The notes beneath the pieces are model-generated. The model was given only the letters and a program-made list of their open reading frames with translations. It was not told the origin of the DNA and made no database searches. Both the position numbers and the translations under genes were made by a program. A DNA stretch of 41,887 nucleotides from Bacteroidota bacterium (GTDB taxonomy: Bacteria > Bacteroidota > Ignavibacteria > Palsa-1295): assembly GCA_021825235.1 (NCBI GenBank), contig JAKAIL010000003.1, positions 1-41,887 of the forward strand, written 5' to 3'. Each line of letters starts with the position of its first letter. Position 1 is the first letter of the stretch. Shown here piece by piece: positions 19,575 through 37,722 of this stretch.

Positions 19575-19749
19575 TGTCGTTAAGAATCTATTAGGTTAAA
19601 TCTCTATGTCAAACTCGGCGAAGCAAGAACCATCCAAGGATGAGCGGTCATCCGGCATAATGCTTTGTAAACTTGACATACCGTAATATAAGCGGCGAAC
19701 TGTCAGTTTCCCTGACACTTGCATGGTATTCTATAGAAAAGTAAAAATC

Positions 19750-19765
19750 GCCGAATGCGTGCCAA
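19750..19765 (-). promoter_or_regulatory. Possible sigma54 promoter
   Basis: TTGGCACGCATTCGGC (GG-N10-GC); palindrome GTATC-N5-GATAC upstream at 19844-19858. Confidence 0.45.
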
Positions 19766-20268
19766 ATTCAGCATGTCAAAATTAAATACTTATCTAATAG
19801 ACAGCGTCAACATTGCAAATTGGAATGACGACGAGGCAAAAGTGTATCAGAACGATACGGATTCATGAAGCGACGACCCATCACCGGTGGTTCAACAGGG
19901 AGGTCCACGGATGAGTGATCTGCCAGAGGATGTTCCATGCACCTGCAATCCGCCTGGAGGACTTAGATAGGGAATCCCGAGGCCAAGAGCTCCGAGGATA
20001 AATCAGTAGCGGCAGAAGCGCGGTAAGCACCGGCGGAAGAAACCGGACCCCGGTACGGGAAGCCTACCCAGGCCGAAGGATGCCATTAACAGAAGGCTCT
20101 GCGATAGGTACTAAGCATGCCGAGCAGCGCAGACCAAACAAGACCGCACGGCAAGAGGCCATGAGCGATCCTTGGAAGAGCGATCACCCCTGCCTGCTTA
20201 AGAACCAGTTGGGAACCTGCGAGACCCAACATCGAAATACCCTGCCGCAACAGAAATCACACGGCCGA

Positions 20269-20531
20269 GTCGACGAATCTTACTTATGAATAGGAAGATT
20301 TATTTACCGGTCTCTGTAAAATTTCTTTACCATCTGGAAGGAATGCGGGTGTTGTCTTGAGGACCGTAAAGGAACTTTCCGCGATCTTACAAAATAATTT
20401 AACATGGTTGACTTTCTGAAAATATAACGGTAAGAATATTCGAAGGAAAAATTCTGATACGAAGAAACAAAAATCTCATGCTTCCTTCAAAAGCATAAAA
20501 AAATTTTTGACAGGTAGTAAGATTTACTTAC
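20269..20531. promoter_or_regulatory. Array of 15-bp GTAAG-N5-CTTAC-like boxes upstream of operon A
   Basis: GGAAGATTTATTTAC 20293, GTAAAATTTCTTTAC 20316, GTAAAGGAACTTTCC 20366, GTAAGAATATTCGAA 20430, GTAAGATTTACTTAC 20517. Confidence 0.65.
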
Positions 20532-20597
20532 GAACATCGCGAGGAGTGTTAAAGAATTATCCGTCGAATCAAGCGAAATCGTGCAATTGATTGACGT

Positions 20598-20614
20598 GGG
20601 TATGCTGGTTGCTA
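20598..20614 (+). promoter_or_regulatory. Sigma54-like -24/-12 promoter of operon A
   Basis: GGGTATGCTGGTTGCTA (GG-N10-GC); nearly identical to the element upstream of operon B. Confidence 0.65.
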
Positions 20615-20735
20615 TGCGTGTTCCAATAATTTTTACAGGATGGGGAAACATGCGCGATGGAAACGTTGCGATGTCCTCCCATCAGCCATAATGATTGAGT
20701 CAAGCATCCACGGAAGGGGCGATTTACTATTTAAC

Positions 20736-21713
20736 ATGGAACAGAACGAAGCAACAAGCAGAAGAAAATTTTTGAAGGTCGCAGCCGCTGCCGGGGCTGT
20801 CATCGCGACCGGTGCCGGACTTAAGAAAGCATTCTCAGCGGATAATCCATCCGGCAGCGATTCGCTCTCGGCAAGCTCTTCCCCAGCCGATACTTCGGCA
20901 TCCGGAGCCGATACTGCCGCGGCTGGTGAGAAGCTAAAAGTTCTTACACCCAGCGGTACGCTTCTCGAAATTGACAGCGCCCATGCCTATGCTACGCAGC
21001 ACAAGCCGGTATCCAATGAAGAAGCACGTATCGGCATACCAGGCCGAAAGTTCGTGATGGTCATTGATCTCTCGAAGTGCGATGGCTGCCGGAAGTGTAC
21101 GAAGGCGTGTCAGAAAATGCACTTTACCCCACCGGACCGCGAGTGGATCAAGGTCTTCGAAATGAAGGATTCGGAAGAAACCGGATCTTACTGGATGCCG
21201 AAGCCCTGCTTCCATTGCGATAATCCTCCCTGCACGAAAGTCTGCCCCGTTGGAGCAACGTTCAAGCGGGAAGATGGCATTGTTCTCATCGATAATACCC
21301 GTTGCATTGGCTGCCGCTTCTGTATGGCGGCCTGCCCATACTCCACGCGGTACTTTAATTGGGAGCACCCTGCAGAAATTCCCGCCATGGCGGATATTCC
21401 GTACACGCCGGAACAAGGGTATCCGCGCCGCGTGGGAACTGCCGAAAAGTGCGATTTCTGTCCGGACATGATTCGTGAAGGGCGCATGCCGGCCTGTATC
21501 GATTCCTGTGATATGGGCGCACTCTATTTCGGCGATGAGAACGAAGATGCGGTAACCAATTCCAATGGTGAGACGGTCCGCTTAAGCACGTTGCTCGATC
21601 AGAACGCGGGATACCGTTTTATGGAAGAATTGGGAACGAAGCCACGCGTCTATTATCTCCCGCCCAAGAATCGCCGTTATCCGGAACCCGTGCATGCAAC
21701 GGTCGTCGGATAA
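20736..21713 (+). CDS. Tat-exported 4x[4Fe-4S] protein (NrfC/PsrB/DsrO family)
   Basis: SRRKFLK Tat motif; CDGCRKCTKAC, CFHCDNPPCTKVCP, CIGCRFCMAACP, KCDFC...PACIDSC. Confidence 0.92.
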   Translation: MEQNEATSRRKFLKVAAAAGAVIATGAGLKKAFSADNPSGSDSLSASSSPADTSASGADTAAAGEKLKVLTPSGTLLEIDSAHAYATQHKPVSNEEARIGIPGRKFVMVIDLSKCDGCRKCTKACQKMHFTPPDREWIKVFEMKDSEETGSYWMPKPCFHCDNPPCTKVCPVGATFKREDGIVLIDNTRCIGCRFCMAACPYSTRYFNWEHPAEIPAMADIPYTPEQGYPRRVGTAEKCDFCPDMIREGRMPACIDSCDMGALYFGDENEDAVTNSNGETVRLSTLLDQNAGYRFMEELGTKPRVYYLPPKNRRYPEPVHATVVG

Positions 21714-21766
21714 TACCATCGTACAGTAGAGTAGAACGGTACCATCAGCCGCCACAAACCTTTATT

Positions 21767-23272
21767 ATGGAACACATTACAAAACAGAAGAACGGAGTAG
21801 CAATGGCTCTTGCCGGAGGAGAAACGGGCGAGAGCCGTGGAGATTTTCCACTTCCGACTGGACCGGGCATCGAAAGCATACGCCAGCATTATTTGCGCCC
21901 CATTGCGCCGGGTAATTTTGGGACGCGAAGCAAGTATTGGATTGCTGGGCTCCTTGTTGTTATGGCATGGGGGCTTTATGCCTACATCCATCAACTACAG
22001 ATGGGTCTCGAAGCCACGGCGATGCGGAACTATGTGTCATGGGGGCTCTATATTGCTACCTTCGTCTTTATTATCGGCATCAGCCATTCGGGCACTCTGG
22101 TCTCAGCCATCCTCCGGGTGACGAATCAGGAATGGCGGCGACCGATTACGCGATCGGCGGAGCTTCTGACGGCCGTCGCACTTATGTTCGGTGGGCTAAT
22201 GCCCATCATCGACATGGGGCGTCCGGACCGCGTGCTCAACCTGATCTTTTACGGACGTATTCAATCCCCCTTACTGTGGGATGTTTTGTGCGTCACGACT
22301 TACTTTACGGGAAGTGTGATGTTCTTGTATTTGCCGATGATCCCGGACATTGCACTGGCGAAGAAGCGGTTTGCTACAACCGGCTCGAAGTTTCGGCTTT
22401 GGGTCTACGATAAGCTTTCGATGGGCTGGCAGGGAACTCCGGAGCAATGGCGCCGGCTCGAACGCGCCATGCGAGTCATGACCGTCATGATCATTCCGAT
22501 CGCGGTTTCCGTACACACCGTGATCTCCTATATCTTTGCAATGACCTTACGGGCAGGATGGGATAGCACCGTGTTCGGGCCCTATTTCGTCGTCGGTGCA
22601 CTGTATTCTGGTTCCGCCGGCGTGATCCTGGTAATGGCGGCATTCCGCAAAATCTATCACCTGGAAGAATTTATTACTCCGCGCCATTTTGACTTAATGG
22701 GGAAAATCGTGCTATCGCTCACGATGATTTATGCCTATTTCAATCTCAATGAATATTGGATCCCAGCGTATAAAATGGCCTCCGGGGAAGCGCCACTGCT
22801 GCACTCGCTCTTCTCCGGTAACCTTTCTACTCTCTTCTGGACCTTACAGTTCGGGACGGTGCTGATTCCCATCATTATCCTGGCCACTCCACGTGGTCGC
22901 AGGCCTACCCTTTCGGTTATTGCTTGCATCATCATCGTGGTCGGTGCCTGGGTGAAGCGATACGCCATTGTCATTCCCGTGCTTGAGCATCCATTCCTTC
23001 CGATGCAGCATGCCCCGCAATCGTGGACGCATTACTTCCCCAATTGGGTGGAATTCTCCGTTGTTGGTGGTATGCTGGCCGGAATATTCTTAGTCCTTAC
23101 CCTCTTTTCGAAGTTCTTCCCCATTAGTTCCATCTGGGAAGTGGAAGAAGGCGTCCACCGATCGGAACATTCGGCGCACGATCACTCATCCGGTCAATCG
23201 CACCTTGCAGCAAATGGGAAGGACACTAATCACAAACACATTCCTGCAGTCGAGGAGGCCTTCGCGCAATGA
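21767..23272 (+). CDS. NrfD/PsrC-family quinone-interacting membrane subunit (ActC/QrcD-like)
   Basis: WGLYIATFVF.IGISHSGTLVSAIL, WRRPITR.AE, DMGRP.R, SPLLWD, SVHTV.S; many TM helices. Confidence 0.92.
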   Translation: MEHITKQKNGVAMALAGGETGESRGDFPLPTGPGIESIRQHYLRPIAPGNFGTRSKYWIAGLLVVMAWGLYAYIHQLQMGLEATAMRNYVSWGLYIATFVFIIGISHSGTLVSAILRVTNQEWRRPITRSAELLTAVALMFGGLMPIIDMGRPDRVLNLIFYGRIQSPLLWDVLCVTTYFTGSVMFLYLPMIPDIALAKKRFATTGSKFRLWVYDKLSMGWQGTPEQWRRLERAMRVMTVMIIPIAVSVHTVISYIFAMTLRAGWDSTVFGPYFVVGALYSGSAGVILVMAAFRKIYHLEEFITPRHFDLMGKIVLSLTMIYAYFNLNEYWIPAYKMASGEAPLLHSLFSGNLSTLFWTLQFGTVLIPIIILATPRGRRPTLSVIACIIIVVGAWVKRYAIVIPVLEHPFLPMQHAPQSWTHYFPNWVEFSVVGGMLAGIFLVLTLFSKFFPISSIWEVEEGVHRSEHSAHDHSSGQSHLAANGKDTNHKHIPAVEEAFAQ

Positions 23273-23925
23273 AAATTCTAAGATGCTCTCTACTATTCGT
23301 GCTCGCACTATTCCTGTTCAGCGTGCATGTACGCCGCTCTCTGGCCATGGACTCTATGGGCGGTATGGCGATGGATTCCGCAGGCGCCAGCACCGCCGCT
23401 GTGAGCGCGAGTGGCGCCGGCGATTCCTCCGCTTCCAATGCCAAACTTACGCTCGCTGTAACGGATGGCGATACGGTTTGGAACGTCCAGGCGAACTTTA
23501 TCGGCCCGGATTCAACCGGCAAGATCGGACCGCTCGCCAATCAGACCGTTAGCTTTTACGTCAAACGGCTCTTTGGCATCATGCCGATGCGAGACGATGA
23601 TAACACGGGAACGACGGATGATTCCGGAAACGCCGTGATTCAAATGCCGAAAAACATTCCCGGTGGTACCACCGGGATGCTCACGATCATTGCTCGTGTG
23701 GAACAAGACGATCAAACCGGTTTGGTCGCCGCCAGCGATTCTGGACATTGGGGGAAGGTCGTTCCTCTCGAGGCTAATCCATTCCCACGCGCGCTGTGGG
23801 AGCCCAATGCGCCCATTTCCATGATCATCGTTTTTGTCATTCTCTTCGGTGGCGTATGGTCCACCTACGGATTTGTAGTAACTCAACTTGTAACCATTAA
23901 AAAGGAACACCAGAATGAAGCATAA
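23269..23925 (+). CDS. Hypothetical periplasmic protein with C-terminal TM anchor
   Basis: Signal peptide, Met-rich start, beta-rich core (TTDDSGNA), C-terminal hydrophobic helix; ATGA-coupled to the nrfD-like gene. Confidence 0.8.
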   Translation: MKILRCSLLFVLALFLFSVHVRRSLAMDSMGGMAMDSAGASTAAVSASGAGDSSASNAKLTLAVTDGDTVWNVQANFIGPDSTGKIGPLANQTVSFYVKRLFGIMPMRDDDNTGTTDDSGNAVIQMPKNIPGGTTGMLTIIARVEQDDQTGLVAASDSGHWGKVVPLEANPFPRALWEPNAPISMIIVFVILFGGVWSTYGFVVTQLVTIKKEHQNEA

Positions 23926-24343
23926 ATCAGTATCCTCCCTTAGTGCTATCTTTCTTTCGATAGCCATTGCGGGGTTCATCGTTGCGTTTATTGTGACGAA
24001 TTCACCTGCAAGCAATGCCGGGAAATGGATGGCGCCAGCCTCCGCGAATAACATGAAAAATCCGGTCGCGAAGACGCCGGTCTCCATTCAGGACGGCAGG
24101 AAAATATTCAATAAAGAATGCAGTTCCTGCCACGGGCCAAAAGGTTTGGGCAATGGCCCAAAGGCGGGCGACCTGAATATTCAACCCAGCAACCTTGCCT
24201 CCCATTTGGTACAGAGCCAAAGCGATGGAGCGATCTTCTGGAAGATCACCACGGGCAATAAGCCGATGCCAACGTTTCGGACGGCCTATTCCGATCAAGA
24301 CCGTTGGAACCTTGTGAACTTTGTACGCACGCTGGGAAAGTAA
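23915..24343 (+). CDS. Monoheme class I cytochrome c
   Basis: CSSCH; SDGAIFWKITTG..PMP.F (distal Met); N-terminal hydrophobic segment. Confidence 0.9.
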   Translation: MKHKSVSSLSAIFLSIAIAGFIVAFIVTNSPASNAGKWMAPASANNMKNPVAKTPVSIQDGRKIFNKECSSCHGPKGLGNGPKAGDLNIQPSNLASHLVQSQSDGAIFWKITTGNKPMPTFRTAYSDQDRWNLVNFVRTLGK

Positions 24344-24428
24344 ACGGAAGCATTTATCTCATTTCCGCGCATCCACAGCCCCCTTTACTGTCAATGCGCA
24401 ACCCTGTTCATTTATCAGAACTACTACC

Positions 24429-25697
24429 ATGAAACGATTCATCACGATTCAATTACTCCTGCTGGCAAGCGCGGTTCTGCTGTTGGTCTCCGTAACCAAA
24501 AGCAACGCCATGCCGATATTCGCTCGCAAGTATGGCTTCAAATGTTCGTATTGCCATACCACGATTCCGCGTTTGAACGAGACGGGATTTCGGTTCCGGG
24601 CCGCGGGCTTCCGGCTGCCAAGCGATATCGGTGGGCCACAACCCGATGAAAATTACCAACTCGGTAACTATCTTGCAATAGCGCTTACGGGTGCACTGTC
24701 TAATAACACAACAAATCCTCCGGGCGCAGCTTCTACTTCTACCTTTTCCATGGGACTCGATCAGATTATGGTGGCCGCGGCTGGTGCGATGACCCCGGAG
24801 ATGTCCGGCGATGTACATTTGATGTACGATCCAATGAGCGGCACATTCGGGCTCGATAAAGCCTATGCGCAATACACCACCGGTGCCGAAAATGGATTCT
24901 TCACTGCCAAGCTGGGCGTGCTCGATCCGTTCCAGGGCTATCAGGCCTCGGATGAGGCGATGGGGCTTTCGGATCCACTCATAAAAGCCGACGCTGCGGT
25001 TGGACCCAATGGTTCCACGCTCTTCACGTCCGGTGGGCTTCCACAATTCGGATTGGAACTTGGATATACCTGGCCGACGACGGCTGTACGAGCTTCGGTC
25101 CTGGGTGGCGTGTTTAATTCCAGTGGCCAACCAATGCCCGTCGAGGGAACCGGTGGTAAACCGGTGGGACCCTCACAGAATAGCGTTGATTTTCAACTCT
25201 TCGTTACGCAGTTCCTGAATCAGGAAGGGGCCGGACTTTCGGGGTACTTCTACATGGGCAGTATCGACCTTCCGACCGGAGTTAGTTCCAGTTCGCCCGA
25301 TAGCAATGTCTTTCAGGATAAGTTCATTCGCTATGCGATCTACGGAACGCTTCCCATCTCCTCGTTTCAGGTGCTGGCCGGTTGGCAACAGGGAACCGAT
25401 AATAGCTGGGACTCCACGACCTTTGCGAAGGGTAGCGACTTTTCGAGTTCCGGATTCTTTGGTGAACTCGATTACCAGCTCGCTCCGCTTCTGGGCGTGG
25501 GCGTCCGCTATGATCAATTCGATCCCTGGACGAAGCAATCCGATAATCTAATAAACGGTGTGGCTGGCTTTGTCAATTATGCCGTTGGGGACGGGCTCCA
25601 ATTCGTTGGAGAATATCAGTCACTTACTACTCAGCAAGGCCCCGGACAAAAAGAGACCGACGGTAGCTTTGGAATCAACGTGATCTGGATTCACTAA
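24429..25697 (+). CDS. cyc2: Cyc2-like fused monoheme cytochrome-porin (copy A)
   Basis: After the signal peptide: AMPIFARKYGFKCSYCHTTIPRLNETGFRFRAAGF, matching the Cyc2 AxPxFAR[Q/K][T/Y]-x3-CxxCH-x3-PxL motif; beta-strand-rich remainder. Confidence 0.88.
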   Translation: MKRFITIQLLLLASAVLLLVSVTKSNAMPIFARKYGFKCSYCHTTIPRLNETGFRFRAAGFRLPSDIGGPQPDENYQLGNYLAIALTGALSNNTTNPPGAASTSTFSMGLDQIMVAAAGAMTPEMSGDVHLMYDPMSGTFGLDKAYAQYTTGAENGFFTAKLGVLDPFQGYQASDEAMGLSDPLIKADAAVGPNGSTLFTSGGLPQFGLELGYTWPTTAVRASVLGGVFNSSGQPMPVEGTGGKPVGPSQNSVDFQLFVTQFLNQEGAGLSGYFYMGSIDLPTGVSSSSPDSNVFQDKFIRYAIYGTLPISSFQVLAGWQQGTDNSWDSTTFAKGSDFSSSGFFGELDYQLAPLLGVGVRYDQFDPWTKQSDNLINGVAGFVNYAVGDGLQFVGEYQSLTTQQGPGQKETDGSFGINVIWIH

Positions 25698-25752
25698 GAA
25701 GTCGTAGAACGCTATGAAGCTGGCTGCAAAAGGCGGCCTGCTAAGGTTATGT

Positions 25753-25786
25753 ATGGGAGATGCCTGAGAGGCATCTCCCATTTTTT
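25753..25786 (+). terminator. Intrinsic terminator of operon A
   Basis: ATGGGAGATGCCT-GAG-AGGCATCTCCCAT followed by TTTTT. Confidence 0.9.
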
Positions 25787-25809
25787 GTCGTATTTCTGCA
25801 TTTCCTCCT

Positions 25810-26417
25810 ATGAAACAAGAACGTTCTCTTTCGACCCAGCCGCTCGTACCGTTGATCTGCACAATCCGGAACAGCCGCGTCATGTTCGAGGCGGACTTAG
25901 CCAGATTGTATGGCGTTAGCACAAAGCGTTTTAACCAAGCATTTAATCGAAATCGTCTCCGATTTCCGGAGGATTTTGCATTTCAGCTTTCAGCTGTAAG
26001 AATGTAAGATACTTCCATTAGAAACACAAGAGCTCCTTTTGAGGTCGCAATTTGCGACCTCAAACAACGAGAAAGAAAATAAGGGGATGCCGACGCTATC
26101 TGCCCTGGGCCCTCACCGAGCACGGCGCGCTTATGGCCGCAAATATTCTTCGAAGTAAACGTACTCGCGAAATGAGTGTCTTTATCATTCGAGCGTTCGC
26201 AAAACTACGCGAGGAAACTGCTGCAAATGCGGTAATCCTCAAACGCTTTGCGGAGATTGATAGGACATTGCTTGTGCATGAAAAGGAGCTGCGAAAGCTT
26301 TATCAACAGCTCCGTCCACTGCTGGCTCCTGGCGAAGTGTCATCCAAACGAAGAATCGGATTTCGAACTCCCGGTGAAGAGGGCTCTCTCACATCAAGCA
26401 GGGATGGGCGAAAGTAG
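25810..26417 (+). pseudogene. ORF6N (KilA-N-like) DNA-binding protein, frameshifted
   Basis: IRNSRVMFEADLARLYGVSTKRFNQA..RN..RFPEDFAFQLS, then LRSQFATS, then RRYLPWALTEHGALMAANILRS and KRRIGF, not in one continuous frame. Confidence 0.85.
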
Positions 26418-26439
26418 CATGTCGCAATATGTAACCAGT

Positions 26440-26973
26440 TCAAGCATTCGCCACTCGTTTCAGGAAGCAGACTCGTGAAATGGCATCATATATCGCATGG
26501 CTGCCAATGTGCTCATAGCCGAGCGCTTCATTCATGTGGATAGCTTCAGCATTTTCCGGATGCTGGAATGTAAAGATCCATTCGATACCGCGCGATTTAC
26601 ATTCCGCTTCAAGTGTGCTCTTTAGTTCACGGGCGATCCCTTGCCGGCGGAATTCCGGCTCGACCCACAGATCGAAAATCTCTGCAAAGCGCATGGAAGA
26701 CCCAATGATTGGAATAAGAAGTTTCCAGGTATTTTCCGTGACCGTTGGTTCCGAAGGGTTTGAAGTGCGAACCATGATAGCGCCGACGGAACGATTAGCA
26801 GTTTGAGCAACGAAGCTAAAGTTCTGACTTTCCTCTAGGAAGCTTCGGATCAGGGCCTCCCGTTTGGCCTTAGCTCCCTGCCAATCGAAGCCCTCCCGAT
26901 CGCAGGAACGCTGGTCGATGGAAAGCAGAAGTGGGAGATCGACCATCGTGGCGCGGTGTAGGGAATAATCCAT
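26440..26973 (-). CDS. GNAT-family N-acetyltransferase
   Basis: LWVEPEFRRQGIA acetyl-CoA motif; N..AI.MNEALGY. Confidence 0.85.
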   Translation of the reverse strand: MDYSLHRATMVDLPLLLSIDQRSCDREGFDWQGAKAKREALIRSFLEESQNFSFVAQTANRSVGAIMVRTSNPSEPTVTENTWKLLIPIIGSSMRFAEIFDLWVEPEFRRQGIARELKSTLEAECKSRGIEWIFTFQHPENAEAIHMNEALGYEHIGSHAIYDAISRVCFLKRVANA

Positions 26974-27041
26974 AGCCAGTGGAACGCCATCCTGGGCAAG
27001 AACGTCATTGAGGGACTCTAAGAAGCTCGAACGAAAGCAAT

Positions 27042-27070
27042 AAAAAACCCTCTCCGTTCGAGAGGGTTTT
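27042..27070 (-). terminator. Intrinsic terminator of operon B
   Basis: AAAACCCTCTC-loop-GAGAGGGTTTT with a T-tract on the minus strand. Confidence 0.85.
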
Positions 27071-27092
27071 CAGTGTGATCTTCTCTAACCGA

Positions 27093-28535
27093 TTACTTTT
27101 TCAGGCTCTGTAGGAACGCTACGAGCTCATGGAATTCGCTATCGGAAACATCGACGGGGTCCATACCGGCATCGCTGGCCTTTTTGGTCGGATGAAGTAG
27201 GCGATCGACCAGCGTATCGGGTCCGAGTTTGTCCGCGGCGCCAAGAAGCGCTGGGGCTTTATCGGTTCCCTCACCATTCTCGCCGTGGCATTGGTCGCAC
27301 GAGTTATCCAGAAAAACGCCTTTACCGGCTTTTGCCGCCGGACTCAACGCGGCGGCAGCATTGGCAGTGGAACCACCAACCACTTCCGGCACAAACGGGG
27401 AAGTCATAAACGCGTTCGCGAGAGAATCCTGCTTGGTAATCTGTTTTGCAACTGAGGGATCGTTCGTATCCTGATAGTTGCTTTGCCATCCAAGAAAGAG
27501 AAGCGCGCAAAATACGATCGCAAAGGAAAACGATGCGACGGGCCGCTTCCACGGTCGTCGTTCCAAGCGGCGATCCAGGAACGGTAACACCACAAGTATG
27601 AGTGCAATGATACCGGGGATCACCACAATGCCAATTACGGAATATGCACCGCTCCAATATTTCAGCCATTGGAACATCGGAAGGTAATACCACTCGGGCC
27701 GAGGAAGGAAGGACGTATCGGCGGGATTTGCCTTCGGCCCAAGACCTACCGGATAAAGGTAGGCGAGCAATCCAAGCGTGCCAATCAGGACCGTCGCAAA
27801 TGCGATATCCATCAGGACCTGCTTGGGGTAAAATTGCTCCGCCTTTTGCTGTGGCATAATCGGATGTTCGGAGACCGGTCCAGCGCTTCCGGCTTTGCGG
27901 AAGAGATAGACGTGAAGCCCCACGAAGAGGAAAATGCACGATGGAATCAGAAATACGTGAGCGACGAAGAAACGGGACAATGTAAGTGTTCCCATCTCCG
28001 TGCCACCCCGCAGGAGCTCCTTAATCCAGTTCCCAACGAGCGGTACTTCGCCGGCAATGTTTGTCCCAACCGCCGTAGCGAAATAGGCTTTCTGGTCCCA
28101 GGGAAGTAAATAACCGGTGAATGCCATGAGGATCACCAGGCCAAACAGTCCCAAACCTGAAAGCCATAGAATTTCCCGACGCCCTTTGTAGGAGCCAAAG
28201 AAATACGTTTGCCCCATGTGGACGAGGAGCGTTACAACCATGGCACTCGAACCATACGAGTGCAGGCTCCGAAGGAACGATCCAGCAGTAACGACCTTCG
28301 TAATGTATTCGATCGTCGTATGGGCGTGATCGGCGCTCGCGACATAATACATCGCAAGAAAGACTCCGGTCACAATCTGCGAAAGCAGAATGTAAAGGAG
28401 TCCCGAGCCAAAGACGTACGACCACCGCGCGCCACCGGGGATTGGTTCATTCAGCGCTTCATCGGCCAGATGAAAGATTCCCGTTCGTTCATCGAGCCAG
28501 CGCATGAAGCGTAAGCTGCGTAAATGCTTTCTCAT
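27093..28535 (-). CDS. Cytochrome b (b + subunit IV) fused to a C-terminal monoheme cytochrome c
   Basis: RSLH...LLVH and AH-x14-H heme b ligands, FTGYLLPWDQ, PEWY Qo motif, C-terminal CDQCH. Confidence 0.93.
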   Translation of the reverse strand: MRKHLRSLRFMRWLDERTGIFHLADEALNEPIPGGARWSYVFGSGLLYILLSQIVTGVFLAMYYVASADHAHTTIEYITKVVTAGSFLRSLHSYGSSAMVVTLLVHMGQTYFFGSYKGRREILWLSGLGLFGLVILMAFTGYLLPWDQKAYFATAVGTNIAGEVPLVGNWIKELLRGGTEMGTLTLSRFFVAHVFLIPSCIFLFVGLHVYLFRKAGSAGPVSEHPIMPQQKAEQFYPKQVLMDIAFATVLIGTLGLLAYLYPVGLGPKANPADTSFLPRPEWYYLPMFQWLKYWSGAYSVIGIVVIPGIIALILVVLPFLDRRLERRPWKRPVASFSFAIVFCALLFLGWQSNYQDTNDPSVAKQITKQDSLANAFMTSPFVPEVVGGSTANAAAALSPAAKAGKGVFLDNSCDQCHGENGEGTDKAPALLGAADKLGPDTLVDRLLHPTKKASDAGMDPVDVSDSEFHELVAFLQSLKK

Positions 28536-29206
28536 GCCATCACCTCCTTCGTTTTGACGAGGTTACGGAATGATTGATAGCGCACCTTCAGATGACCCTC
28601 TTCGATTTTGGATTCGAGTGAATCCATATCTCGCGGCGGGGGCCCTGAAATCAGTTTGCCGGTTGCCGCAAACTTACCACCATGGCACGGGCATTTGAAT
28701 TGGTGATCGTCATCGACATACTTAACCGAGCAGCCCAAGTGTGGACAGACCGCCGTTAGCACCGCCGGTTGGCCGTCTGCGCCTTTGATTACGTACACCA
28801 CCTTTTCGGAATTGACTTTTCTCCAACCATCGAGTTGGGTAATCGAGATCGTCTTCTTTTGTGGTGTGCTCAGGTCACCCAAATCATCCACGGAACCCAG
28901 GTCGGTCCATTCCGTTTCCTGGGAAACCCGGAGCAGCGGATCGATCGCGAACCGAAACAGCGGTACGGAAAGCGCGCCTGCTACTCCCACGGTTCCGATT
29001 CCGAGGAACCATCCGAGGAACCGGCGCCGCGCCACAGACTCCGCCGCACCGAGCGTGCCACCGGCGGCCGTATGTTCGTGCCCGGAAGTCATCTCTAAAT
29101 GCGAAGCATCATGCGCCGAGCGCCCATTCGTTGGAATGGGCGCCCGTTGCTGGATTTCGTTGGATGACCGATTATCCGTTACTTCTTCTTTTGACTTTCG
29201 AGCCAT
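28532..29206 (-). CDS. Rieske [2Fe-2S] subunit (true start may be ATG 29092)
   Basis: ARRRFLG Tat motif plus TM helix; CPHLGC and CPCHGGKF boxes; GPPPR. Confidence 0.93.
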   Translation of the reverse strand: MARKSKEEVTDNRSSNEIQQRAPIPTNGRSAHDASHLEMTSGHEHTAAGGTLGAAESVARRRFLGWFLGIGTVGVAGALSVPLFRFAIDPLLRVSQETEWTDLGSVDDLGDLSTPQKKTISITQLDGWRKVNSEKVVYVIKGADGQPAVLTAVCPHLGCSVKYVDDDHQFKCPCHGGKFAATGKLISGPPPRDMDSLESKIEEGHLKVRYQSFRNLVKTKEVMA

Positions 29207-29520
29207 GCCGTCAGTGTGTTAAGTTCTTCATCGGAACCAGTGAACTTTTTCATGTGCTTTTTGCCATGCTGTTCCACTTCCTTGTGCAGCCACTGCTTCA
29301 TCCAGTCCTGCGTATGGCGGTCGCCAACGTCGGAAAGATCGGGTGGTGGATACTTCGCACCTTCCGGCGGCTCGCTGGTATGATGAATACCCTGCGAGGA
29401 GATCGAATGGCACTTGTTGCACCCGTTATCGAGGAAAAGGCTCTTTCCCGAATTGCTTTTGAGTGTGGCGCTCGTGAGTAAACCGGTCGCGAGCAAACCT
29501 AAGAATAGTGTTTTCTTCAT
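29179..29520 (-). CDS. Small periplasmic monoheme cytochrome c
   Basis: Signal peptide MKKTLFLGLLATGLL; CNKCH; PPDLSDVG; KKHMKKF. Confidence 0.9.
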   Translation of the reverse strand: MKKTLFLGLLATGLLTSATLKSNSGKSLFLDNGCNKCHSISSQGIHHTSEPPEGAKYPPPDLSDVGDRHTQDWMKQWLHKEVEQHGKKHMKKFTGSDEELNTLTAWLESQKKK

Positions 29521-29543
29521 CGAATTATTATCCTTCCTTTGAT

Positions 29544-30899
29544 TTATTGGAACCAACTGACACGCAGCGCAAAGGCATTATTCTGTGCTGTTCCCAGCAA
29601 GCTCTCTCCATTCGAAGTCGGAGTCTTTGTGCTCGTGGCAGCGTAGGAGGCGGTGAGCGAGAACCCATCGCCGAAATTATAGTCCACGTAGCCCGTAATC
29701 ACGTTAATGTTATCGATGCTGGCGTTCGAATTGTCTGGCGTTACTGCATCGTAGCGCGCGCCAACGCCGATGAGGTCCGTAACCGGATAATCGGCTTCGC
29801 CGAACCAGCCAGAGCTGCTGATATCCGGGCCATACGAGAAGGTTTTCAGAGCCCAGCTATTATCGGAACCGTGTTCATAGCCGCCTTCCAGAAGGACCTT
29901 CGCGACGGGAATCGGGTAACTCGCATAGATCGCATAGCGGCTGAATTTATTTTGCCAGAATTCCGAATCGACATTGGTCGAAGCAGAGCCCGTGTTAATG
30001 TCGGCGTTTCCAAGGTAGTACGCCGCGGAAATACCGCCACCATCCTCGGTCAGGATATAGTTGGCCCAAAACATATAGTCAAAGGAATTAGCGGAGGGGG
30101 CTTGCCCTGCACCGACGCCGGTCGGTTTACCGGCCACGGCTGCCGAAGGCTTTCCGCCGGCATAGGTATAACCACTCAGGACTTCCGCATGTACCGTCGC
30201 TTCACCGAAGACATATCCGAGATCGATTCCCATATTGGAACCAGTCAGTCCGGTGTACGTGGGCTTTACCCCGCCATTCTGATAATTATACAAGCTGATT
30301 GCATACCCCGAATTCATCTTCGGGCTGCCACTCCACCCACGATCGGAGCCGCCGTAGCCCATGAAGGTATTAAGCTTTCCAATGCGTGCCGAGAACCAGG
30401 AATCTTCGGTACCCGTGTAATAACCAACAGAAGCCGTCGAAACTTCGAGGCTGCCATTGGTGCTGAACCCGAGTTCCGATTCTGATGAGATATTCGGCGT
30501 TAGAGCGCCGAATATGGCATAGATAGAACCACCGGTGAAGGCCATGTTCATGTTGCTAACCGAGGGCGATCCGGATGCCGCCGCGGTTGCCGACGACTGA
30601 TTCACGGCAAAATTCAGCCTGCCCGCGAAGTAGTCCCCGATGTTATACGATGCTTGTTTCTGCCCGATTTCGTCCGGCATCCGGTAACCGGCTGCACGGA
30701 ATTTCCAGCCGAATTCGTTCAGTTTCGGAATTACGTCATGGCAGCTGCCGCAGCCAAGGCCGTACTTCCGCGCGAAATTAGGCATCGCGCTGGCCGTGTG
30801 TAGTATGGGAATTACGGGCGATGCCGAAATCGCGAAGAGTGCAAGCAGGAGCGCCATCACCCGTAGTGTCTGTTGGAGTTGTAAGCTATGAGAACGCAT
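29544..30899 (-). CDS. cyc2: Cyc2-like fused monoheme cytochrome-porin (copy B)
   Basis: AMPNFARKYGLGCGSCHDVIPKLNEFGWKFRAAGYRMP Cyc2 motif after the signal peptide; beta-barrel-like body ending ALRVSWFQ. Confidence 0.9.
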   Translation of the reverse strand: MRSHSLQLQQTLRVMALLLALFAISASPVIPILHTASAMPNFARKYGLGCGSCHDVIPKLNEFGWKFRAAGYRMPDEIGQKQASYNIGDYFAGRLNFAVNQSSATAAASGSPSVSNMNMAFTGGSIYAIFGALTPNISSESELGFSTNGSLEVSTASVGYYTGTEDSWFSARIGKLNTFMGYGGSDRGWSGSPKMNSGYAISLYNYQNGGVKPTYTGLTGSNMGIDLGYVFGEATVHAEVLSGYTYAGGKPSAAVAGKPTGVGAGQAPSANSFDYMFWANYILTEDGGGISAAYYLGNADINTGSASTNVDSEFWQNKFSRYAIYASYPIPVAKVLLEGGYEHGSDNSWALKTFSYGPDISSSGWFGEADYPVTDLIGVGARYDAVTPDNSNASIDNINVITGYVDYNFGDGFSLTASYAATSTKTPTSNGESLLGTAQNNAFALRVSWFQ

Positions 30900-31070
30900 A
30901 GTGTTTCTTTGGTTATGGTTGAAGTTCGAAGGCCAGGATCCGCTATCCGTGGTCCGGCGTGTGGCCAACAGTGTTCCGAAATTCGGAACCCCGCCCCGCA
31001 AACCGGAAGCAGCGTCGGCGATGCTCGGACTCTACGGACCTCGGGCTCCCGGCCTTTGAGGCGCTTGGCC

Positions 31071-31087
31071 TATCAAGCAGCATACCT
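31071..31087 (-). promoter_or_regulatory. Sigma54-like promoter of operon B
   Basis: Minus strand AGGTATGCTGCTTGATA versus GGGTATGCTGGTTGCTA of operon A. Confidence 0.6.
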
Positions 31088-31142
31088 ACCGGTACTATTT
31101 GCGGGAATTAAAGGATTTTGAGCACCCGGAAGATTTCAATCA

Positions 31143-31383
31143 GTTAAGTTTACTTACAGCGTTAATAAAATCTTTCACACACGTTTTATGAACCCGTAAA
31201 AACATTGCTATGCACGAGAACTATTTTCCAGAAACCGTAGGAATTAATAGTCAAATATTCTTACGCGCGAACGATCTAAAGGTGAATATTTCTTTTACAC
31301 ATCGTAGGGGTGCATTGCAATCGCTCCCTGTTTCATGCAAATTTCTTAACTGGGAATGAGAAAGACGCGCTAACAAATCTTAC
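31143..31383. promoter_or_regulatory. Array of GTAAG-N5-CTTAC-like boxes upstream of operon B
   Basis: GTTAAGTTTACTTAC 31143, GTCAAATATTCTTAC 31250, TGCAAATTTCTTAAC 31336, GCTAACAAATCTTAC 31369. Confidence 0.65.
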
Positions 31384-31515
31384 GGACTACGGACAGTGGA
31401 AAGTGGACAACGGATAGTGGATAATGGAAAGTACCGTGGACAACGGATAGTGGATAGTACCGCCTGAGTAGTCTCCATTATCCACTATCCACTATCCACT
31501 TTCCACTTTCCACTA
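31381..31515. repeat. Inverted arrays of degenerate 7-bp tandem repeats
   Basis: (AGTGGAT/AACGGAT/AGTGGAA)n followed by (TCCACTA/TCCACTT)n. Confidence 0.9.
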
Positions 31516-34746: not shown

Positions 34747-34791
34747 GTGCGGTCCCTAAGTGCTAAAGTACTGAGTGCTGAAGTGGCCCTA

Positions 34792-37511: not shown

Positions 37512-37668
37512 TTTTTCCCCCTTTCTCCCCCCGCGAGCGGGGAGAGAAAGGGGGGAAAAGCGAGAGCGTTGTGTGAAAGGCATTATCATTCCGCGCGGGT
37601 AAGACGCCGAAATACGTCGGATATTGTGAGAAGATTCGGGAAACCAGTAGATAGTGCGGGAAATGATG

Positions 37669-37722
37669 AATGTAGAATGGTGAATGATGAATTGCGGCAT
37701 TCATCATTCACCATTCTACATT
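37669..37722. repeat. Perfect 24-bp inverted repeat built from heptamers
   Basis: AATGTAGAATGGTGAATGATGAAT-tgcggc-ATTCATCATTCACCATTCTACATT. Confidence 0.9.

What the first reader, a model, noticed from the sequence alone, without database searches (positions are those of the whole stretch)
20269..31383. Twin Cyc2 conduits wired to two different quinone-pool modules: candidate undescribed extracellular electron-transfer system
Seen: two convergent, terminator-bounded operons. A: NrfC-NrfD-unknown-cyt c-Cyc2. B: Cyc2-cyt c-Rieske-cyt b/c. Each encodes an outer membrane, periplasmic and inner membrane component. Established: Cyc2 is a fused cytochrome-porin Fe(II) oxidase in Acidithiobacillus and Zetaproteobacteria; NrfD-family and Rieske/cyt b complexes exchange electrons with quinones. 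Inference: a likely FCB-group organism, a group not known for this metabolism, has two parallel, co-regulated wires between the cell surface and the menaquinone pool. They may differ in direction or redox potential (metal oxidation versus reduction). No terminal oxidase is in the window, so direction and substrate are unresolved. Novelty needs a database check.
Basis: partly seen in the sequence, partly recalled or inferred. Interest (0 to 1): 0.92.

Follow-up and report, generated by a model that had tools for sequence, protein, structure and literature searches.

The report
Two Cyc2 iron conduits with quinone modules
A Kapabacteria-like bacterium from mine drainage carries two outer-membrane cytochrome-porins of the Cyc2 iron-oxidase family, each in one operon with its own quinone-linked membrane complex, a gene linkage that recurs across several soil and sediment phyla and bears on what these widespread Cyc2 relatives do.

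Summary
Operon A (+, 20640-25697) encodes a TAT-exported NrfC/ActB-type FeS protein, an ActC-like NrfD subunit, an Ig-domain membrane protein, an anchored monoheme cytochrome c and Cyc2A. Operon B (-, 30899-27093) encodes Cyc2B, a soluble cytochrome c, a Rieske protein and a cytochrome b with a fused cytochrome c. Each ends in a strong hairpin terminator. Both Cyc2 candidates meet every published sequence criterion for Cyc2 and model as 16-strand porins. FeGenie HMMs could not be run. The linkage is not chance. Among 80 related loci from named genomes, 17 have Rieske/cyt b and 6 have NrfC/ActC within 4 kb of cyc2, spread over Acidobacteriota, Gemmatimonadota, Myxococcota, Ignavibacteria and Kapaibacterium. 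The modules are extra paralogs: the genome also has a canonical ACIII, a caa3-type oxidase, a second Rieske/cyt b and a third Cyc2-like cluster. I found no RuBisCO, bd or cbb3 oxidase, or molybdoenzyme. The Cyc2-to-bc1/ACIII idea and Cyc2 in Ignavibacteriales MAGs are already published; I found no paper describing the operon-level coupling or the reduced ACIII-like module. Direction is unresolved. I lean towards quinol-to-Fe(III) over uphill Fe(II) oxidation. Verdict: new variant of a known kind, moderately high interest.

The parts
20640..21713 (+). NrfC/ActB2-type periplasmic 4x[4Fe-4S] subunit with a TAT signal (SRRKFLK). The probable true start is the methionine at about 20736.
   Evidence: Pfam Fer4_11 E 2e-22 and TAT_signal. 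NCBIfam DsrO 194.1 bits, below the cut-off of 200. It aligns only to residues 788-1012 of the genome's own 1037-aa ActB. PDB hits: PsrB 2vpw_B 3.9e-32, ACIII ActB 6f0k_B 5.8e-23.
21767..23272 (+). ActC-like NrfD-family quinone-interacting membrane subunit
   Evidence: Pfam NrfD 3.8e-36. The best solved relatives are the four ACIII ActC chains: 6btm_C 1.3e-61, 8k9e_C, 6lod_C, 6f0k_C. It is 32% identical to the genome's canonical ActC, against 40-51% to Cyc2-linked copies in other phyla.
23269..23925 (+). 218-aa protein of no Pfam family: signal peptide, one Ig-like domain, conserved PFPRALWEP motif and a C-terminal membrane helix. Probable subunit of the ACIII-like module, at the position where Acidobacteriota have ActD.
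   Evidence: No Pfam hit even at E 1. 39 relatives beside the window's own protein were found; most of the ~300-aa forms carry Big_1 PF02369 (alignment A3). In Terriglobia locus L071 the ActC homolog (672 aa) is fused to a Big_1 domain and a similar C-terminal helix. Complex prediction with ActC gave weak support: 0.53 against a best control of 0.00.
23915..24343 (+). Monoheme class I cytochrome c with a hydrophobic N-terminal anchor (ActE-like position)
   Evidence: Pfam Cytochrome_CBB3 1.5e-14, Cytochrom_C 2.4e-12. Weak NCBIfam hit to Leptospirillum-type cytochrome 579: 40 bits, cut-off 280.
24429..25697 (+). Cyc2A: fused monoheme cytochrome-porin, 422 aa
   Evidence: Carries AMPIFARKY-GFK-CSYCH-TTI-PRL, which matches the published motifs. 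AF2 pLDDT 88.2, pTM 0.84, 16 long strands. Foldseek finds 16-strand porins including OprO 4rjw and OprP 2o4v.
25753..25781 (+). Intrinsic terminator of operon A
   Evidence: 13-pair stem, 7 GC pairs, T-run.
29544..30899 (-). Cyc2B: fused monoheme cytochrome-porin, 451 aa, paralog of Cyc2A
   Evidence: 35% identical to Cyc2A over the full length, E 9e-80. Carries AMPNFARKY-GLG-CGSCH-DVI-PKL. AF2 pLDDT 79.6, pTM 0.78, 16 long strands.
29179..29556 (-). Soluble monoheme cytochrome c with a cleavable-looking signal peptide. The probable start is MKKTLF at 29520.
   Evidence: Pfam Cytochrom_C 1.3e-08. Homologs sit between cyc2 and the Rieske gene in L015, L018 and in genus relatives.
28532..29206 (-). 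Rieske [2Fe-2S] subunit with a TAT-like RRRFLG motif. Box I is CPHLGC and box II is CPCHGGKF.
   Evidence: Pfam Rieske 1.6e-12. Motifs read. 36% identical over 94 residues to the genome's second Rieske protein.
27093..28535 (-). Cytochrome b (both halves, PEWY present) fused to a C-terminal monoheme cytochrome c
   Evidence: Pfam Cytochrome_B 7.2e-44, Cytochrom_B_C 4.3e-11, Cytochrom_C 2.8e-08 at residues 401-479. 40% identical to the genome's second cytochrome b over 142 residues, against 44-52% to Cyc2-linked copies in Acidobacteriota.
27043..27071 (-). Intrinsic terminator of operon B
   Evidence: 12-pair stem, T-run.

Best explanation
Shown: the region encodes two paralogous Cyc2-family outer-membrane cytochrome-porins. 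Each is transcribed with class I cytochrome(s) c and with its own extra copy of a quinone-interacting inner-membrane complex.
- Operon A has a reduced ACIII-like module: an ActB2-type FeS protein, ActC, an Ig-domain membrane subunit and an anchored monoheme cytochrome c. It has no ActA, no B1 domain, no ActD and no ActF.
- Operon B has a Rieske/cytochrome b complex whose cytochrome c is fused to cytochrome b.

Inferred: each operon is a self-contained electron chain between the menaquinone pool and a dissolved extracellular redox species, most probably iron, that enters the Cyc2 barrel. The hardware is reversible in principle.

My committed reading of direction is outward. Menaquinol is oxidised by the bc complex or the ACIII-like module, which conserves energy. 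Electrons then pass to cytochrome c and to the Cyc2 heme, and reduce soluble high-potential Fe(III), which is stable in acidic mine drainage. This gives an oxygen-dependent heterotroph an alternative electron sink. The third Cyc2-like cluster on C230, with a dihaem c4-like cytochrome and no quinone module, is the better candidate for plain Fe(II) oxidation towards the caa3-type oxidase.

I put about 0.85 on the hardware reading and about 0.45 on the outward direction. The confidence given is for the direction-specific statement.
For: Hardware:
- The family assignments and motifs are listed under parts.
- Both Cyc2 proteins model as 16-strand porins with a small N-terminal helical haem domain.
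- The profile of this family matches a second Cyc2-like family over 371 columns: hhalign 99.7%, E 1e-26.

Coupling is not chance:
- Of 80 related loci, Rieske plus cyt b lie within 4 kb of cyc2 in 17 (15 on the same strand). NrfC plus ActC lie within 4 kb in 6 (all on the same strand). Either is present in 22 and both in 1 (L024, Ignavibacteria).
- Among the 40 loci with at least 4 kb on both sides, the counts are 10, 5 and 14.
- The linked loci span Acidobacteriota, Gemmatimonadota, Myxococcota, Ignavibacteria and Kapaibacterium.
- In Acidobacteriota the ACIII-like version carries a true ActD (PF11821, E 1.8e-17 to 5.7e-28, 3 of 3 tested) and a monoheme cytochrome c before cyc2.
- Among the 11 class relatives whose cyc2 regions I fetched, the operon B type is present in 7 and the operon A type in 2.

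Dedicated paralogs: the genome also has ActABCDEF plus SCO1 plus COX2 (C23), COX1 (C179) and a second Rieske/cyt b (C323/C170).

Direction:
- The operons contain the quinol-side enzyme and no oxidase.
- In this 92% complete genome I found no RuBisCO, no bd oxidase, no FixO/cbb3 and no molybdopterin enzyme. There is therefore no evident need for uphill NADH production and no other anaerobic acceptor.
- MqnA/MqnD homologs point to menaquinone.
- Rieske box II reads CPCHGGKF, which I recall as the low-potential, menaquinol-type form.
- All 4 listed DNA holders, from one study, are labelled mine drainage metagenome.
- A. ferrooxidans is modelled with ubiquinol to bc1 (PetII) to cytochrome c to Cyc2 to Fe(III), and with a second Cyc2 paralog raised during Fe(III) reduction (PMC7735108, passages).
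Against: - Every Cyc2-family protein tested biochemically was tested as an Fe(II) oxidase: A. ferrooxidans Cyc2, Leptospirillum Cyt572 and Cyc2PV-1 at +208 mV (PMC8406198; PMC13741234).
- At neutral pH no common soluble Fe(III) species lies above a Rieske/cytochrome c chain, and the pH of the habitat is unknown to me.
- Most hosts of the linked loci are soil Acidobacteriota and Gemmatimonadota, not known iron reducers.
- Absence calls rest on a 92% complete, 346-contig MAG. The ATP-citrate-lyase search was uninformative because its control rang nowhere.
- Operon A encodes no soluble carrier.
- There is no expression or activity data.
- 26 Cyc2 copies with enough flank show neither linkage, so coupling is optional for the family.
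Confidence: 0.45

Rival explanations
1. Same hardware used inward. Fe(II) is oxidised at Cyc2 and electrons go to cytochrome c. They are then pushed uphill by the proton-motive force through the dedicated bc complex and the ACIII-like module, both running in reverse, into menaquinone and on to NDH-1. This is the 'uphill branch' of known iron oxidisers, equivalent to petI of A. ferrooxidans.
For: - It is the published model for Cyc2 organisms (PMC5566968; PMC13741234; Tenderiales preprint).
- A. ferrooxidans keeps a separate bc1 (petI) for this purpose.
- All tested Cyc2 proteins oxidise Fe(II).
- The mine drainage label suggests a habitat rich in Fe(II).
- Two NuoD matches lie at contig ends, so there may be two NDH-1 complexes.
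- Cytochrome c A weakly resembles cytochrome 579.
Against: - No RuBisCO was found and nothing else points to autotrophy, so the reducing power has no obvious use.
- Menaquinone makes the uphill step larger than with ubiquinone (plus recalled potentials).
- The operons lack the oxidase that an iron oxidiser needs most.
- The hosts of the linked loci come from lineages known to me as heterotrophs (recalled).
Confidence: 0.3
2. Common-acceptor hub. Cyc2 (an Fe(II):cytochrome c oxidoreductase) and the bc or ACIII-like complex (a quinol:cytochrome c oxidoreductase) both reduce the same co-encoded cytochrome c, which the caa3-type oxidase re-oxidises. No electrons pass between Cyc2 and the quinone pool. 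The operon simply groups cytochrome c reductases of an aerobic high-potential chain.
For: - It needs no reversed enzyme and no unusual acceptor.
- A COX1/COX2 oxidase exists in the genome.
- The cytochrome c genes lie between the two reductases in operon B.
Against: - The genome already has a canonical ACIII next to COX2 and a second Rieske/cyt b, so extra quinol oxidoreductases would be redundant.
- In several Acidobacteriota loci cyc2 abuts the Rieske gene with no separate cytochrome c gene, for example L028, L049 and L093.
Confidence: 0.12
3. The conduit handles something other than iron, such as Mn(II)/Mn(III) complexes, humic or other soluble redox shuttles. In that case the Cyc2 label misleads about the substrate.
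For: - The function of cluster 3-like Cyc2 is called the most uncertain (PMC8406198).
- Cyc2 is proposed for Mn(II) oxidation in Ca. Manganitrophaceae (PMC9040806).
- The family is large and mostly in soil phyla: 3520 representatives at E <= 1e-3 (taxa).
Against: - No positive evidence for any other substrate.
- The habitat label is iron-related.
- The conserved cytochrome motif is shared with proven Fe(II) oxidases.
Confidence: 0.08
4. The adjacency has no functional meaning: the genes lie together by accident of genome arrangement.
For: - 26 Cyc2 copies with at least 4 kb of flank on both sides have neither module nearby.
- Gene order varies: cyc2 comes before or after the bc genes, and two loci have them on opposite strands.
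Against: - 17 of 80 and 6 of 80 loci show the linkages across at least five phyla, mostly on the same strand and tightly spaced. By my rough estimate, a random gene lies within 4 kb of a Rieske/cyt b operon in well under 1% of cases.
- The bc label needs 14 changes on the Cyc2 tree, so the linkage was kept or rebuilt many times.
Confidence: 0.05

Closest known systems
Acidithiobacillus ferrooxidans iron system: rus operon (cyc2, cyc1, cox, rus), cyc2B/cyc1B pair, petI and petII bc1 operons
   Same: Two Cyc2 paralogs and two separate quinone-linked complexes in one organism. One published model runs bc1 in reverse for Fe(II) oxidation, another runs it forward to Cyc2 for Fe(III) reduction (PMC7735108). 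The habitat is acidic mine water.
   Different: - There, cyc2 sits with the oxidase and the bc1 genes are in other operons. Here cyc2 is in the same operon as the quinone module and no oxidase is present.
- Ubiquinone there, menaquinone (futalosine genes) here.
- No rusticyanin is seen here.
- One module here is ACIII-like, not bc1.
- The host here looks heterotrophic.
Leptospirillum Cyt572-Cyt579 chain (Cyc2 cluster 3)
   Same: - A fused monoheme cytochrome-porin. Its mature N-terminus YPGFARKYNF (PMC13741234) matches the xPxFARKY start predicted here after the signal peptide.
- Relatives of Cyt572 are reported mainly from Acidobacteria and Nitrospira (PMC10654088). This is the same taxon mix as the relatives found here.
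   Different: Cluster membership was not tested here because I had no FeGenie HMMs and no named Cyt572 sequence. Cyt572 is longer (570 aa). The passages I read report no operon link to bc or ACIII-like genes.
Neutrophilic iron-oxidiser model Cyc2 to Cyc1 to ACIII or bc1 (Mariprofundus, Gallionellaceae)
   Same: The same three tiers and the same two alternative inner-membrane entry points to the quinone pool (PMC5566968; PMC10734462).
   Different: In that model the link is inferred from co-occurrence and expression, not from shared operons. The ACIII there is the full ActABCDEF complex. The hosts are autotrophs with cbb3 oxidases, and no match to the cbb3 subunit FixO was found here.
Alternative complex III (solved: 6btm, 6f0k, 6lod, 8k9e)
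   Same: ActC is the best solved relative of the NrfD subunit (E about 1e-61). The FeS subunit matches the C-terminal B2 part of ActB. A monoheme cytochrome c sits at the ActE position.
   Different: The module lacks the pentahaem ActA, the B1 domain of ActB, ActD and ActF. It has an Ig-domain membrane protein instead. It is a relative of ACIII, not a member.
Porin-multihaem conduits (MtrCAB/CymA, MtoAB, PioAB)
   Same: An outer-membrane barrel plus cytochrome, linked through periplasmic carriers to a quinol-side enzyme and encoded together.
   Different: Those use a 26-strand barrel with decahaem wires (PMC8406198). Here there is one haem in a 16-strand barrel, which is thought to handle only dissolved species. 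This genome has no multihaem cytochrome apart from ActA.

Membership tests
Cyc2 fused cytochrome-porin (criteria of Keffer et al. 2021, PMC8406198) | N-terminal signal peptide | tested here: met
   Judged by reading the sequence only; no SignalP run. Both proteins have a hydrophobic N-terminus ending SNA/ASA just before the motif. AF2 models residues 2-20 and 2-24 as a lone helix. Cyt572 is cleaved at the equivalent site.
Cyc2 fused cytochrome-porin | Exactly one CXXCH haem motif | tested here: met
   CSYCH in Cyc2A and CGSCH in Cyc2B. 79 of 80 related loci also have exactly one.
Cyc2 fused cytochrome-porin | AXPXFAR[Q/K][T/Y] motif shortly upstream of CXXCH | tested here: met
   AMPIFARKY and AMPNFARKY, each three residues before the first Cys (motif). 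Among relatives, only 43 of 80 fit a relaxed form of the whole motif; the last position often differs.
Cyc2 fused cytochrome-porin | PXL motif about 4 residues after CXXCH | tested here: met
   TTI-PRL and DVI-PKL.
Cyc2 fused cytochrome-porin | Length of at least 365 aa and a 16-strand beta-barrel porin | tested here: met
   422 and 451 aa. The AF2 models have 16 long strands each: pLDDT 88.2 and 79.6. Foldseek, run on Cyc2A only, finds PorB 3.2e-12, OprO 4rjw 2.1e-09 and OprP 2o4v 4.1e-09.
Cyc2 fused cytochrome-porin | Score above the FeGenie Cyc2 HMM cut-off and cluster (1, 2 or 3) assignment | not testable with these tools
Pfam and NCBIfam have no matching model. Cluster 3 is my guess from the taxon mix.
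Cyc2 fused cytochrome-porin | Haem attached, outer-membrane location, Fe(II) oxidase activity | not testable with these tools
   Needs expression and assay.
Alternative complex III | ActC-type NrfD subunit | tested here: met
   The four ActC chains are the best PDB matches, E 1.3e-61 to 8.2e-61, nearly full length.
Alternative complex III | ActB with both the B1 (molybdopterin-like) and B2 (FeS) domains | tested here: not met
   The protein has 357 aa and aligns only to residues 788-1012 of the genome's 1037-aa ActB.
Alternative complex III | Pentahaem ActA, ActD and ActF subunits | tested here: not met
   The only ORF in the genome with three or more CXXCH motifs is ActA on C23. The 218-aa protein has no ActD match even at E 1. 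There is no second NrfD gene in the window. ActD is present in the Acidobacteriota counterparts.
Rieske/cytochrome b complex (bc1/b6f kind) | Rieske cluster-binding boxes, cytochrome b with both halves and a Qo-site PEWY | tested here: met
   CPHLGC and CPCHG; PEWY; Pfam Cytochrome_B plus Cytochrom_B_C on one polypeptide. The four haem-ligand histidines were judged by eye only.
Rieske/cytochrome b complex (bc1/b6f kind) | Separate cytochrome c1 or f subunit | tested here: not met
   No c1/f gene is present. A class I monoheme domain is fused to the C-terminus of cytochrome b, residues 401-479. It is a variant architecture.
DsrMKJOP (DsrO/DsrP) | Scores above the NCBIfam equivalog cut-offs, and DsrMKJ partners | tested here: not met
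   DsrO scores 194.1 against 200 and DsrP 119.2 against 350. There are no DsrM, DsrK or DsrJ genes in the operon.

The most novel reading that the evidence does not exclude
The Cyc2 relatives that fill genomes of heterotrophic Acidobacteriota, Gemmatimonadota, Ignavibacteria and Kapabacteria are not iron oxidases. They are the terminal reductases of an unrecognised, energy-conserving extracellular respiration. In it, menaquinol is oxidised by a dedicated Rieske/cyt b complex or a reduced ACIII-like complex, and electrons leave through a single-haem porin to soluble high-potential metals: Fe(III) at low pH, and ligand-bound Fe(III) or Mn(III) elsewhere. Metagenomic counts of 'iron oxidation potential' based on cyc2 would then be wrong for these phyla.
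Probability: 0.3. Interest if true: 0.85.

Novelty: new variant of a known kind. Interest (0 to 1): 0.62.

Why it matters
Cyc2 is the main marker gene used to infer microbial iron oxidation from metagenomes. Yet the function of its largest and most diverse branch, found in organisms not known to oxidise iron, is openly called uncertain (PMC8406198).

A conserved operon link between such Cyc2 genes and dedicated quinone-side complexes is genomic evidence for the long-assumed contact between Cyc2 and the quinone pool. It also gives a compact, clonable unit of three to five genes for testing direction and substrate.

If the chain runs outward, cyc2-based iron-oxidation inventories for soils, aquifers and mine waters would need revision. 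If it runs inward, it is the first case I know of where the uphill branch is encoded together with the oxidase-independent entry point.

The reduced ACIII-like module, with an Ig-domain subunit or with ActD, also adds a form to the NrfD-type complexes.

Tried and rejected
- Expression: no RNA holder was listed for window 21500-31000.
- Rfam: no family at gathering score anywhere in the window.
- Upstream regions: the 1.1-kb non-coding stretch before operon A and the region before operon B share only chance-size blastn matches (29-37 nt) with genus relatives, so no regulatory element was found.
- Pfam and NCBIfam have no model that matches Cyc2A or Cyc2B.
- The cluster look-up gave only 'hypothetical protein' names.
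- The ESM Atlas gave only porin and cytochrome c cluster names, commonest phylum Acidobacteriota, plus one cluster with Porin_O_P in 20% of members.
- My first, strict motif pattern matched only 38 of 80 loci and a relaxed one 43 of 80. The published last position [T/Y] is often L, F or E in this family. My genome-wide pattern search therefore missed the third Cyc2-like gene (FAH instead of FAR), which the profile search found.
- DsrOP reading: rejected, below cut-offs and without partners.
- Classical MenB: the best hit scored 175 bits against a cut-off of 342.7, so it was not called. Futalosine genes were found instead.
- ATP-citrate lyase: no match, but the control rang nowhere, so this is uninformative.
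- I built no tree of cytochrome b or ActC with unlinked reference copies. The claim that the Cyc2-linked modules form their own lineages rests only on pairwise identities.
- Supplementary files, which hold the Cyc2 trees and FeGenie neighbourhood tables of the cited papers, were closed. They might already list Kapabacteria sequences or these gene neighbourhoods.

Full report
**Anatomy.** The window is contig C37 of a 3.84-Mb, 346-contig genome that is 92% complete.

On the + strand, five tightly packed genes run from 20640 to 25697:
- a TAT-exported protein with four FeS-cluster motifs;
- an NrfD-family membrane protein;
- a 218-aa protein with no Pfam family;
- a monoheme cytochrome c with a hydrophobic N-terminus;
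- a 422-aa protein with one CXXCH near its N-terminus.

On the - strand, four genes run from 30899 to 27093:
- a 451-aa paralog of that last protein (35% identity, E 9e-80);
- a small soluble cytochrome c;
- a Rieske protein;
- a cytochrome b that carries both its halves and a C-terminal cytochrome c domain.

The two strongest hairpin-plus-T-run sites of the region lie just after the last gene of each operon. The operons converge, but a GNAT gene and a small ORF lie between them. Upstream of operon A there are about 1.1 kb without a convincing ORF or any Rfam match.

**Are the two porin-like proteins Cyc2?** Keffer et al. (PMC8406198, passages read) define the family by five features:
- a signal peptide;
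- one CXXCH;
- an AXPXFAR[Q/K][T/Y] motif just upstream, said to be unique to Cyc2;
- a PXL motif just downstream;
- a length of at least 365 aa with a 16-strand porin.

Cyc2A reads AMPIFARKY-GFK-CSYCH-TTI-PRL and Cyc2B reads AMPNFARKY-GLG-CGSCH-DVI-PKL. The mature N-terminus of purified Leptospirillum Cyt572 is quoted as YPGFARKYNF (PMC13741234). That is the same position as the residue after the predicted cleavage sites here.

AlphaFold2 with family alignments gave confident models: Cyc2A pLDDT 88.2 and pTM 0.84; Cyc2B pLDDT 79.6 and pTM 0.78. Each has two short N-terminal helices around the haem motif, 16 long strands and one short extra hairpin. Foldseek of the Cyc2A model against the PDB returned 16-strand general porins: PorB 3.2e-12, Omp32 and OmpT. 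It also returned OprO 4rjw and OprP 2o4v, the two templates named in the Cyc2 literature.

A profile of the family matches a second Cyc2-like family, which the sequence search had picked up only by its N-terminus, over 371 columns (hhalign 99.7%, E 1e-26).

Two things could not be tested: scoring with the FeGenie HMMs, and therefore the cluster number. The taxon mix of relatives fits what is written about relatives of Cyt572 (PMC10654088), so cluster 3 is my guess.

**The inner-membrane modules.** The NrfD protein's best solved relatives are the four ActC chains of alternative complex III (E about 1e-61, near full length). The FeS protein matches only the C-terminal FeS part of ActB. The module has no pentahaem ActA, no B1 domain, no ActD and no ActF, so it is a relative of ACIII and not a member.

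The 218-aa protein has 39 relatives beside the window's own protein. Most of the ~300-aa forms carry a Big_1 Ig-like domain, and all 38 aligned sequences, the window's included, share a PFPR-x-x-W core and a C-terminal helix. In a Terriglobia locus (L071) the ActC homolog is fused to just such a domain and helix.

A fold-based binding test of ActC with residues 60-218 of this protein gave weak support:
- The score was 0.53 against 0.00 for the best of 3 controls.
- That mark was reached by 58 of 80 solved complexes and 2 of 110 mismatched pairs.
- At 0.60 or under, it was reached by only 7 of those 80 and by both mismatches that passed.
- The runs agree in at least 77% of their contacts, and the partner pLDDT is at least 71.

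In Acidobacteriota the same position holds a true ActD (3 of 3 tested, E 1.8e-17 to 5.7e-28), followed by a monoheme cytochrome c and cyc2.

Operon B is a complete Rieske/cytochrome b complex: CPHLGC and CPCHG boxes, and PEWY. It lacks a c1 or f subunit, whose place is taken by the fused cytochrome c.

**Recurrence.** A scan of one genome per species found 99 relatives of Cyc2A, of which 80 were kept. By their record titles they are:
- 44 Acidobacteriota, 6 Ignavibacteria, 5 Gemmatimonadota;
- 4 Bacteroidota, 4 Myxococcota (including two cultured Anaeromyxobacter);
- 3 Kapaibacterium, 3 Eisenbacteria, 2 Nitrospirota, 2 Gammaproteobacteria;
- 7 others.

79 of the 80 have exactly one CXXCH, preceded by a P-x-F-A-R-like motif.

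I ran tblastn with the window's proteins against these loci:
- Rieske plus cyt b lie within 4 kb of cyc2 in 17 of 80 loci (15 on the same strand).
- NrfC plus ActC lie within 4 kb in 6 of 80 (all on the same strand).
- Either is present in 22 and both in 1. That one is L024, an Ignavibacteria MAG arranged like the window.
- Two further loci (L071, L084) have NrfC/ActC slightly beyond 4 kb.
- Among the 40 loci with at least 4 kb on both sides, the numbers are 10, 5 and 14.

On a Cyc2 tree of 84 copies plus 16 outgroup rows, the bc-linked copies (21, plus 1 linked to both) need 14 changes. The shuffled mean is 19.3, and 1 of 500 shuffles was as low. The linkage is therefore spread over many branches.

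The window's two paralogs fall with three other Kapaibacterium copies in one clade (SH-aLRT 99), inside a Bacteroidota/Ignavibacteria clade of 13 rows (98). That indicates a duplication within this lineage rather than two imports. Cyc2B sits on a long branch (0.85), so its exact place is unsure.

I then searched 401 sampled genomes of the host's class. 160 match the profile at E <= 1e-10, but most match only the N-terminal 60-150 positions. Full-length matches (E <= 1e-100) occur in 12 genomes including the host; 9 of these are in its genus.

For 11 relatives I fetched the surrounding regions:
- The operon B type is present in 7.
- The operon A type is present in 2.
- One relative (G060) has the A type and a cytochrome c-Rieske-cyt b cluster about 20 kb apart on one contig.
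- Two of these loci (L131, L133) repeat the gene order and identities of L015 and L014 and are not independent of them.

**Genome context.** The host also has:
- a canonical ActABCDEF followed by SCO1 and COX2 (C23);
- COX1 (C179);
- a second Rieske/cyt b split over two contig ends (C323, C170);
- a third Cyc2-like cluster on C230, consisting of a CarboxypepD_reg-domain protein, a 413-aa Cyc2-like protein with FAHKY in place of FARKY, a dihaem cytochrome c and a lipoprotein-like monoheme cytochrome c.

The window's cytochrome b is 40% identical to the other copy, and its ActC is 32% identical to the canonical one. Both figures are lower than their identities to Cyc2-linked copies in other phyla (44-52% and 40-51%).

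I found no cytochrome bd, no FixO (cbb3), no RuBisCO large subunit and no molybdopterin enzyme. No ORF other than ActA has three or more CXXCH motifs. The ATP-citrate-lyase search was uninformative. MqnA/MqnD homologs indicate menaquinone made by the futalosine route. There are NuoD matches on four contigs, two of them long matches at contig ends. All absences hold only for a 92% complete draft.

The stretch 21500-31000 is held almost whole (0.92-0.99 of sampled words) by 4 DNA runs of one study labelled mine drainage metagenome. One of these runs may be the source of the assembly.

**Mechanism.** The parts list is shown. That each operon is one electron chain between menaquinone and a dissolved extracellular species is inferred from co-transcription, from the dedicated paralogs, and from the recurrence of the link.

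Direction is not shown by anything here. For the uphill, inward reading:
- every biochemical test of the family has been an Fe(II) oxidation test;
- it is the standard model for Cyc2 organisms;
- A. ferrooxidans keeps a dedicated bc1 (petI) for this purpose.

For the outward reading:
- the operons contain the quinol-side enzyme and not the oxidase, unlike the rus operon;
- the host shows no carbon-fixation marker and no other anaerobic acceptor;
- menaquinol offers a large driving force towards soluble Fe(III) at low pH;
- the Rieske box II form is the one I recall as low-potential;
- a published A. ferrooxidans model has Cyc2 acting as the terminal Fe(III) reductase fed by bc1, with a second Cyc2 paralog raised under those conditions.

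I put outward at 0.45, inward at 0.30, a common-acceptor hub at 0.12, another substrate at 0.08 and chance adjacency at 0.05.

**Novelty.** Known already:
- Cyc2 as a fused cytochrome-porin;
- its spread into many phyla, including Ignavibacteriales and Zixibacteria MAGs (PMC8478452) and Krumholzibacteria and Aminicenantes (PMC7914226);
- the ACIII/bc1 entry points to the quinone pool, possibly with opposite directions.

Not found in the library:
- Any link of Kapabacteria with Cyc2. Two library records (one listed) hold both words, and the listed one makes no link.
- Any paper placing cyc2 in one operon with Rieske/cyt b genes or with an NrfCD/ACIII-like module. The searches were made, and I read passages.

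**Verdict.** A real, recurrent and functionally suggestive gene arrangement, and a new variant of a known kind of system.

Noticed in passing
Own genome contig C230 = L136:5555-9337 (- strand): A third Cyc2-like cluster. It consists of a CarboxypepD_reg-domain protein (297 aa), a 413-aa Cyc2-like cytochrome-porin with FAHKY in place of FARKY, a dihaem cytochrome c (280 aa) and a lipoprotein-like monoheme cytochrome c (198 aa). There is no quinone module beside it. Similar divergent copies lie 3-5 kb downstream of the operon B type in genus relatives (L125, L127, L130).
   Followed up: partly
window 19575-20735: About 1.1 kb upstream of operon A has no convincing ORF, no Rfam match and no conservation with the two relatives that carry the operon A type.
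   Followed up: partly
window 31391-31511: A long imperfect inverted repeat: 44-nt arms, 86% complementary, 33 nt apart, built from GTGGA[AT]A-like heptamers. It lies just beyond the stop of the AcrB-family gene and about 400 nt upstream of Cyc2B. It could be a terminator or a protein-binding array.
   Followed up: partly
L071:18362-20380 (Terriglobia MAG): A 672-aa ActC homolog fused at its C-terminus to a Big_1 Ig-like domain and a membrane helix resembling the window's 218-aa protein. It lies about 6 kb from a cyc2 gene.
   Followed up: partly
window 15268-17886: An 872-aa protein that joins a patatin-like phospholipase domain to POTRA and Omp85 barrel domains.
   Followed up: no
window 5703-6446: A 247-aa protein with a rifampin ADP-ribosyltransferase (Arr-ms) domain, E 3.5e-46.
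   Followed up: no
window 31513-37700: An RND efflux operon (AcrB-family pump, HlyD-type adaptor, outer-membrane factor) directly upstream of operon B on the same strand.
   Followed up: no
Own genome contig C336 = L011:3009-5143: A 420-aa protein with only a weak COX1 match (38 bits), next to a DUF1858/DUF2249 protein. It may be an NnrS-like or other haem-copper-related membrane protein rather than an oxidase.
   Followed up: no
L024:8642-9799 and L091:16678-17928: In an Ignavibacteria locus and an Acidobacteria locus, the NrfC-ActC pair is followed by a tetrahaem class I cytochrome c (385 and 416 aa). This is a third variant of the ACIII-like module. In L024 that cytochrome directly precedes cyc2; in L091 the module lies about 3 kb downstream of cyc2.
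   Followed up: no
Own genome contigs C130 and C283: Two long NuoD (49-kDa subunit) matches, each at a contig end, suggest two NDH-1 complexes.
   Followed up: no
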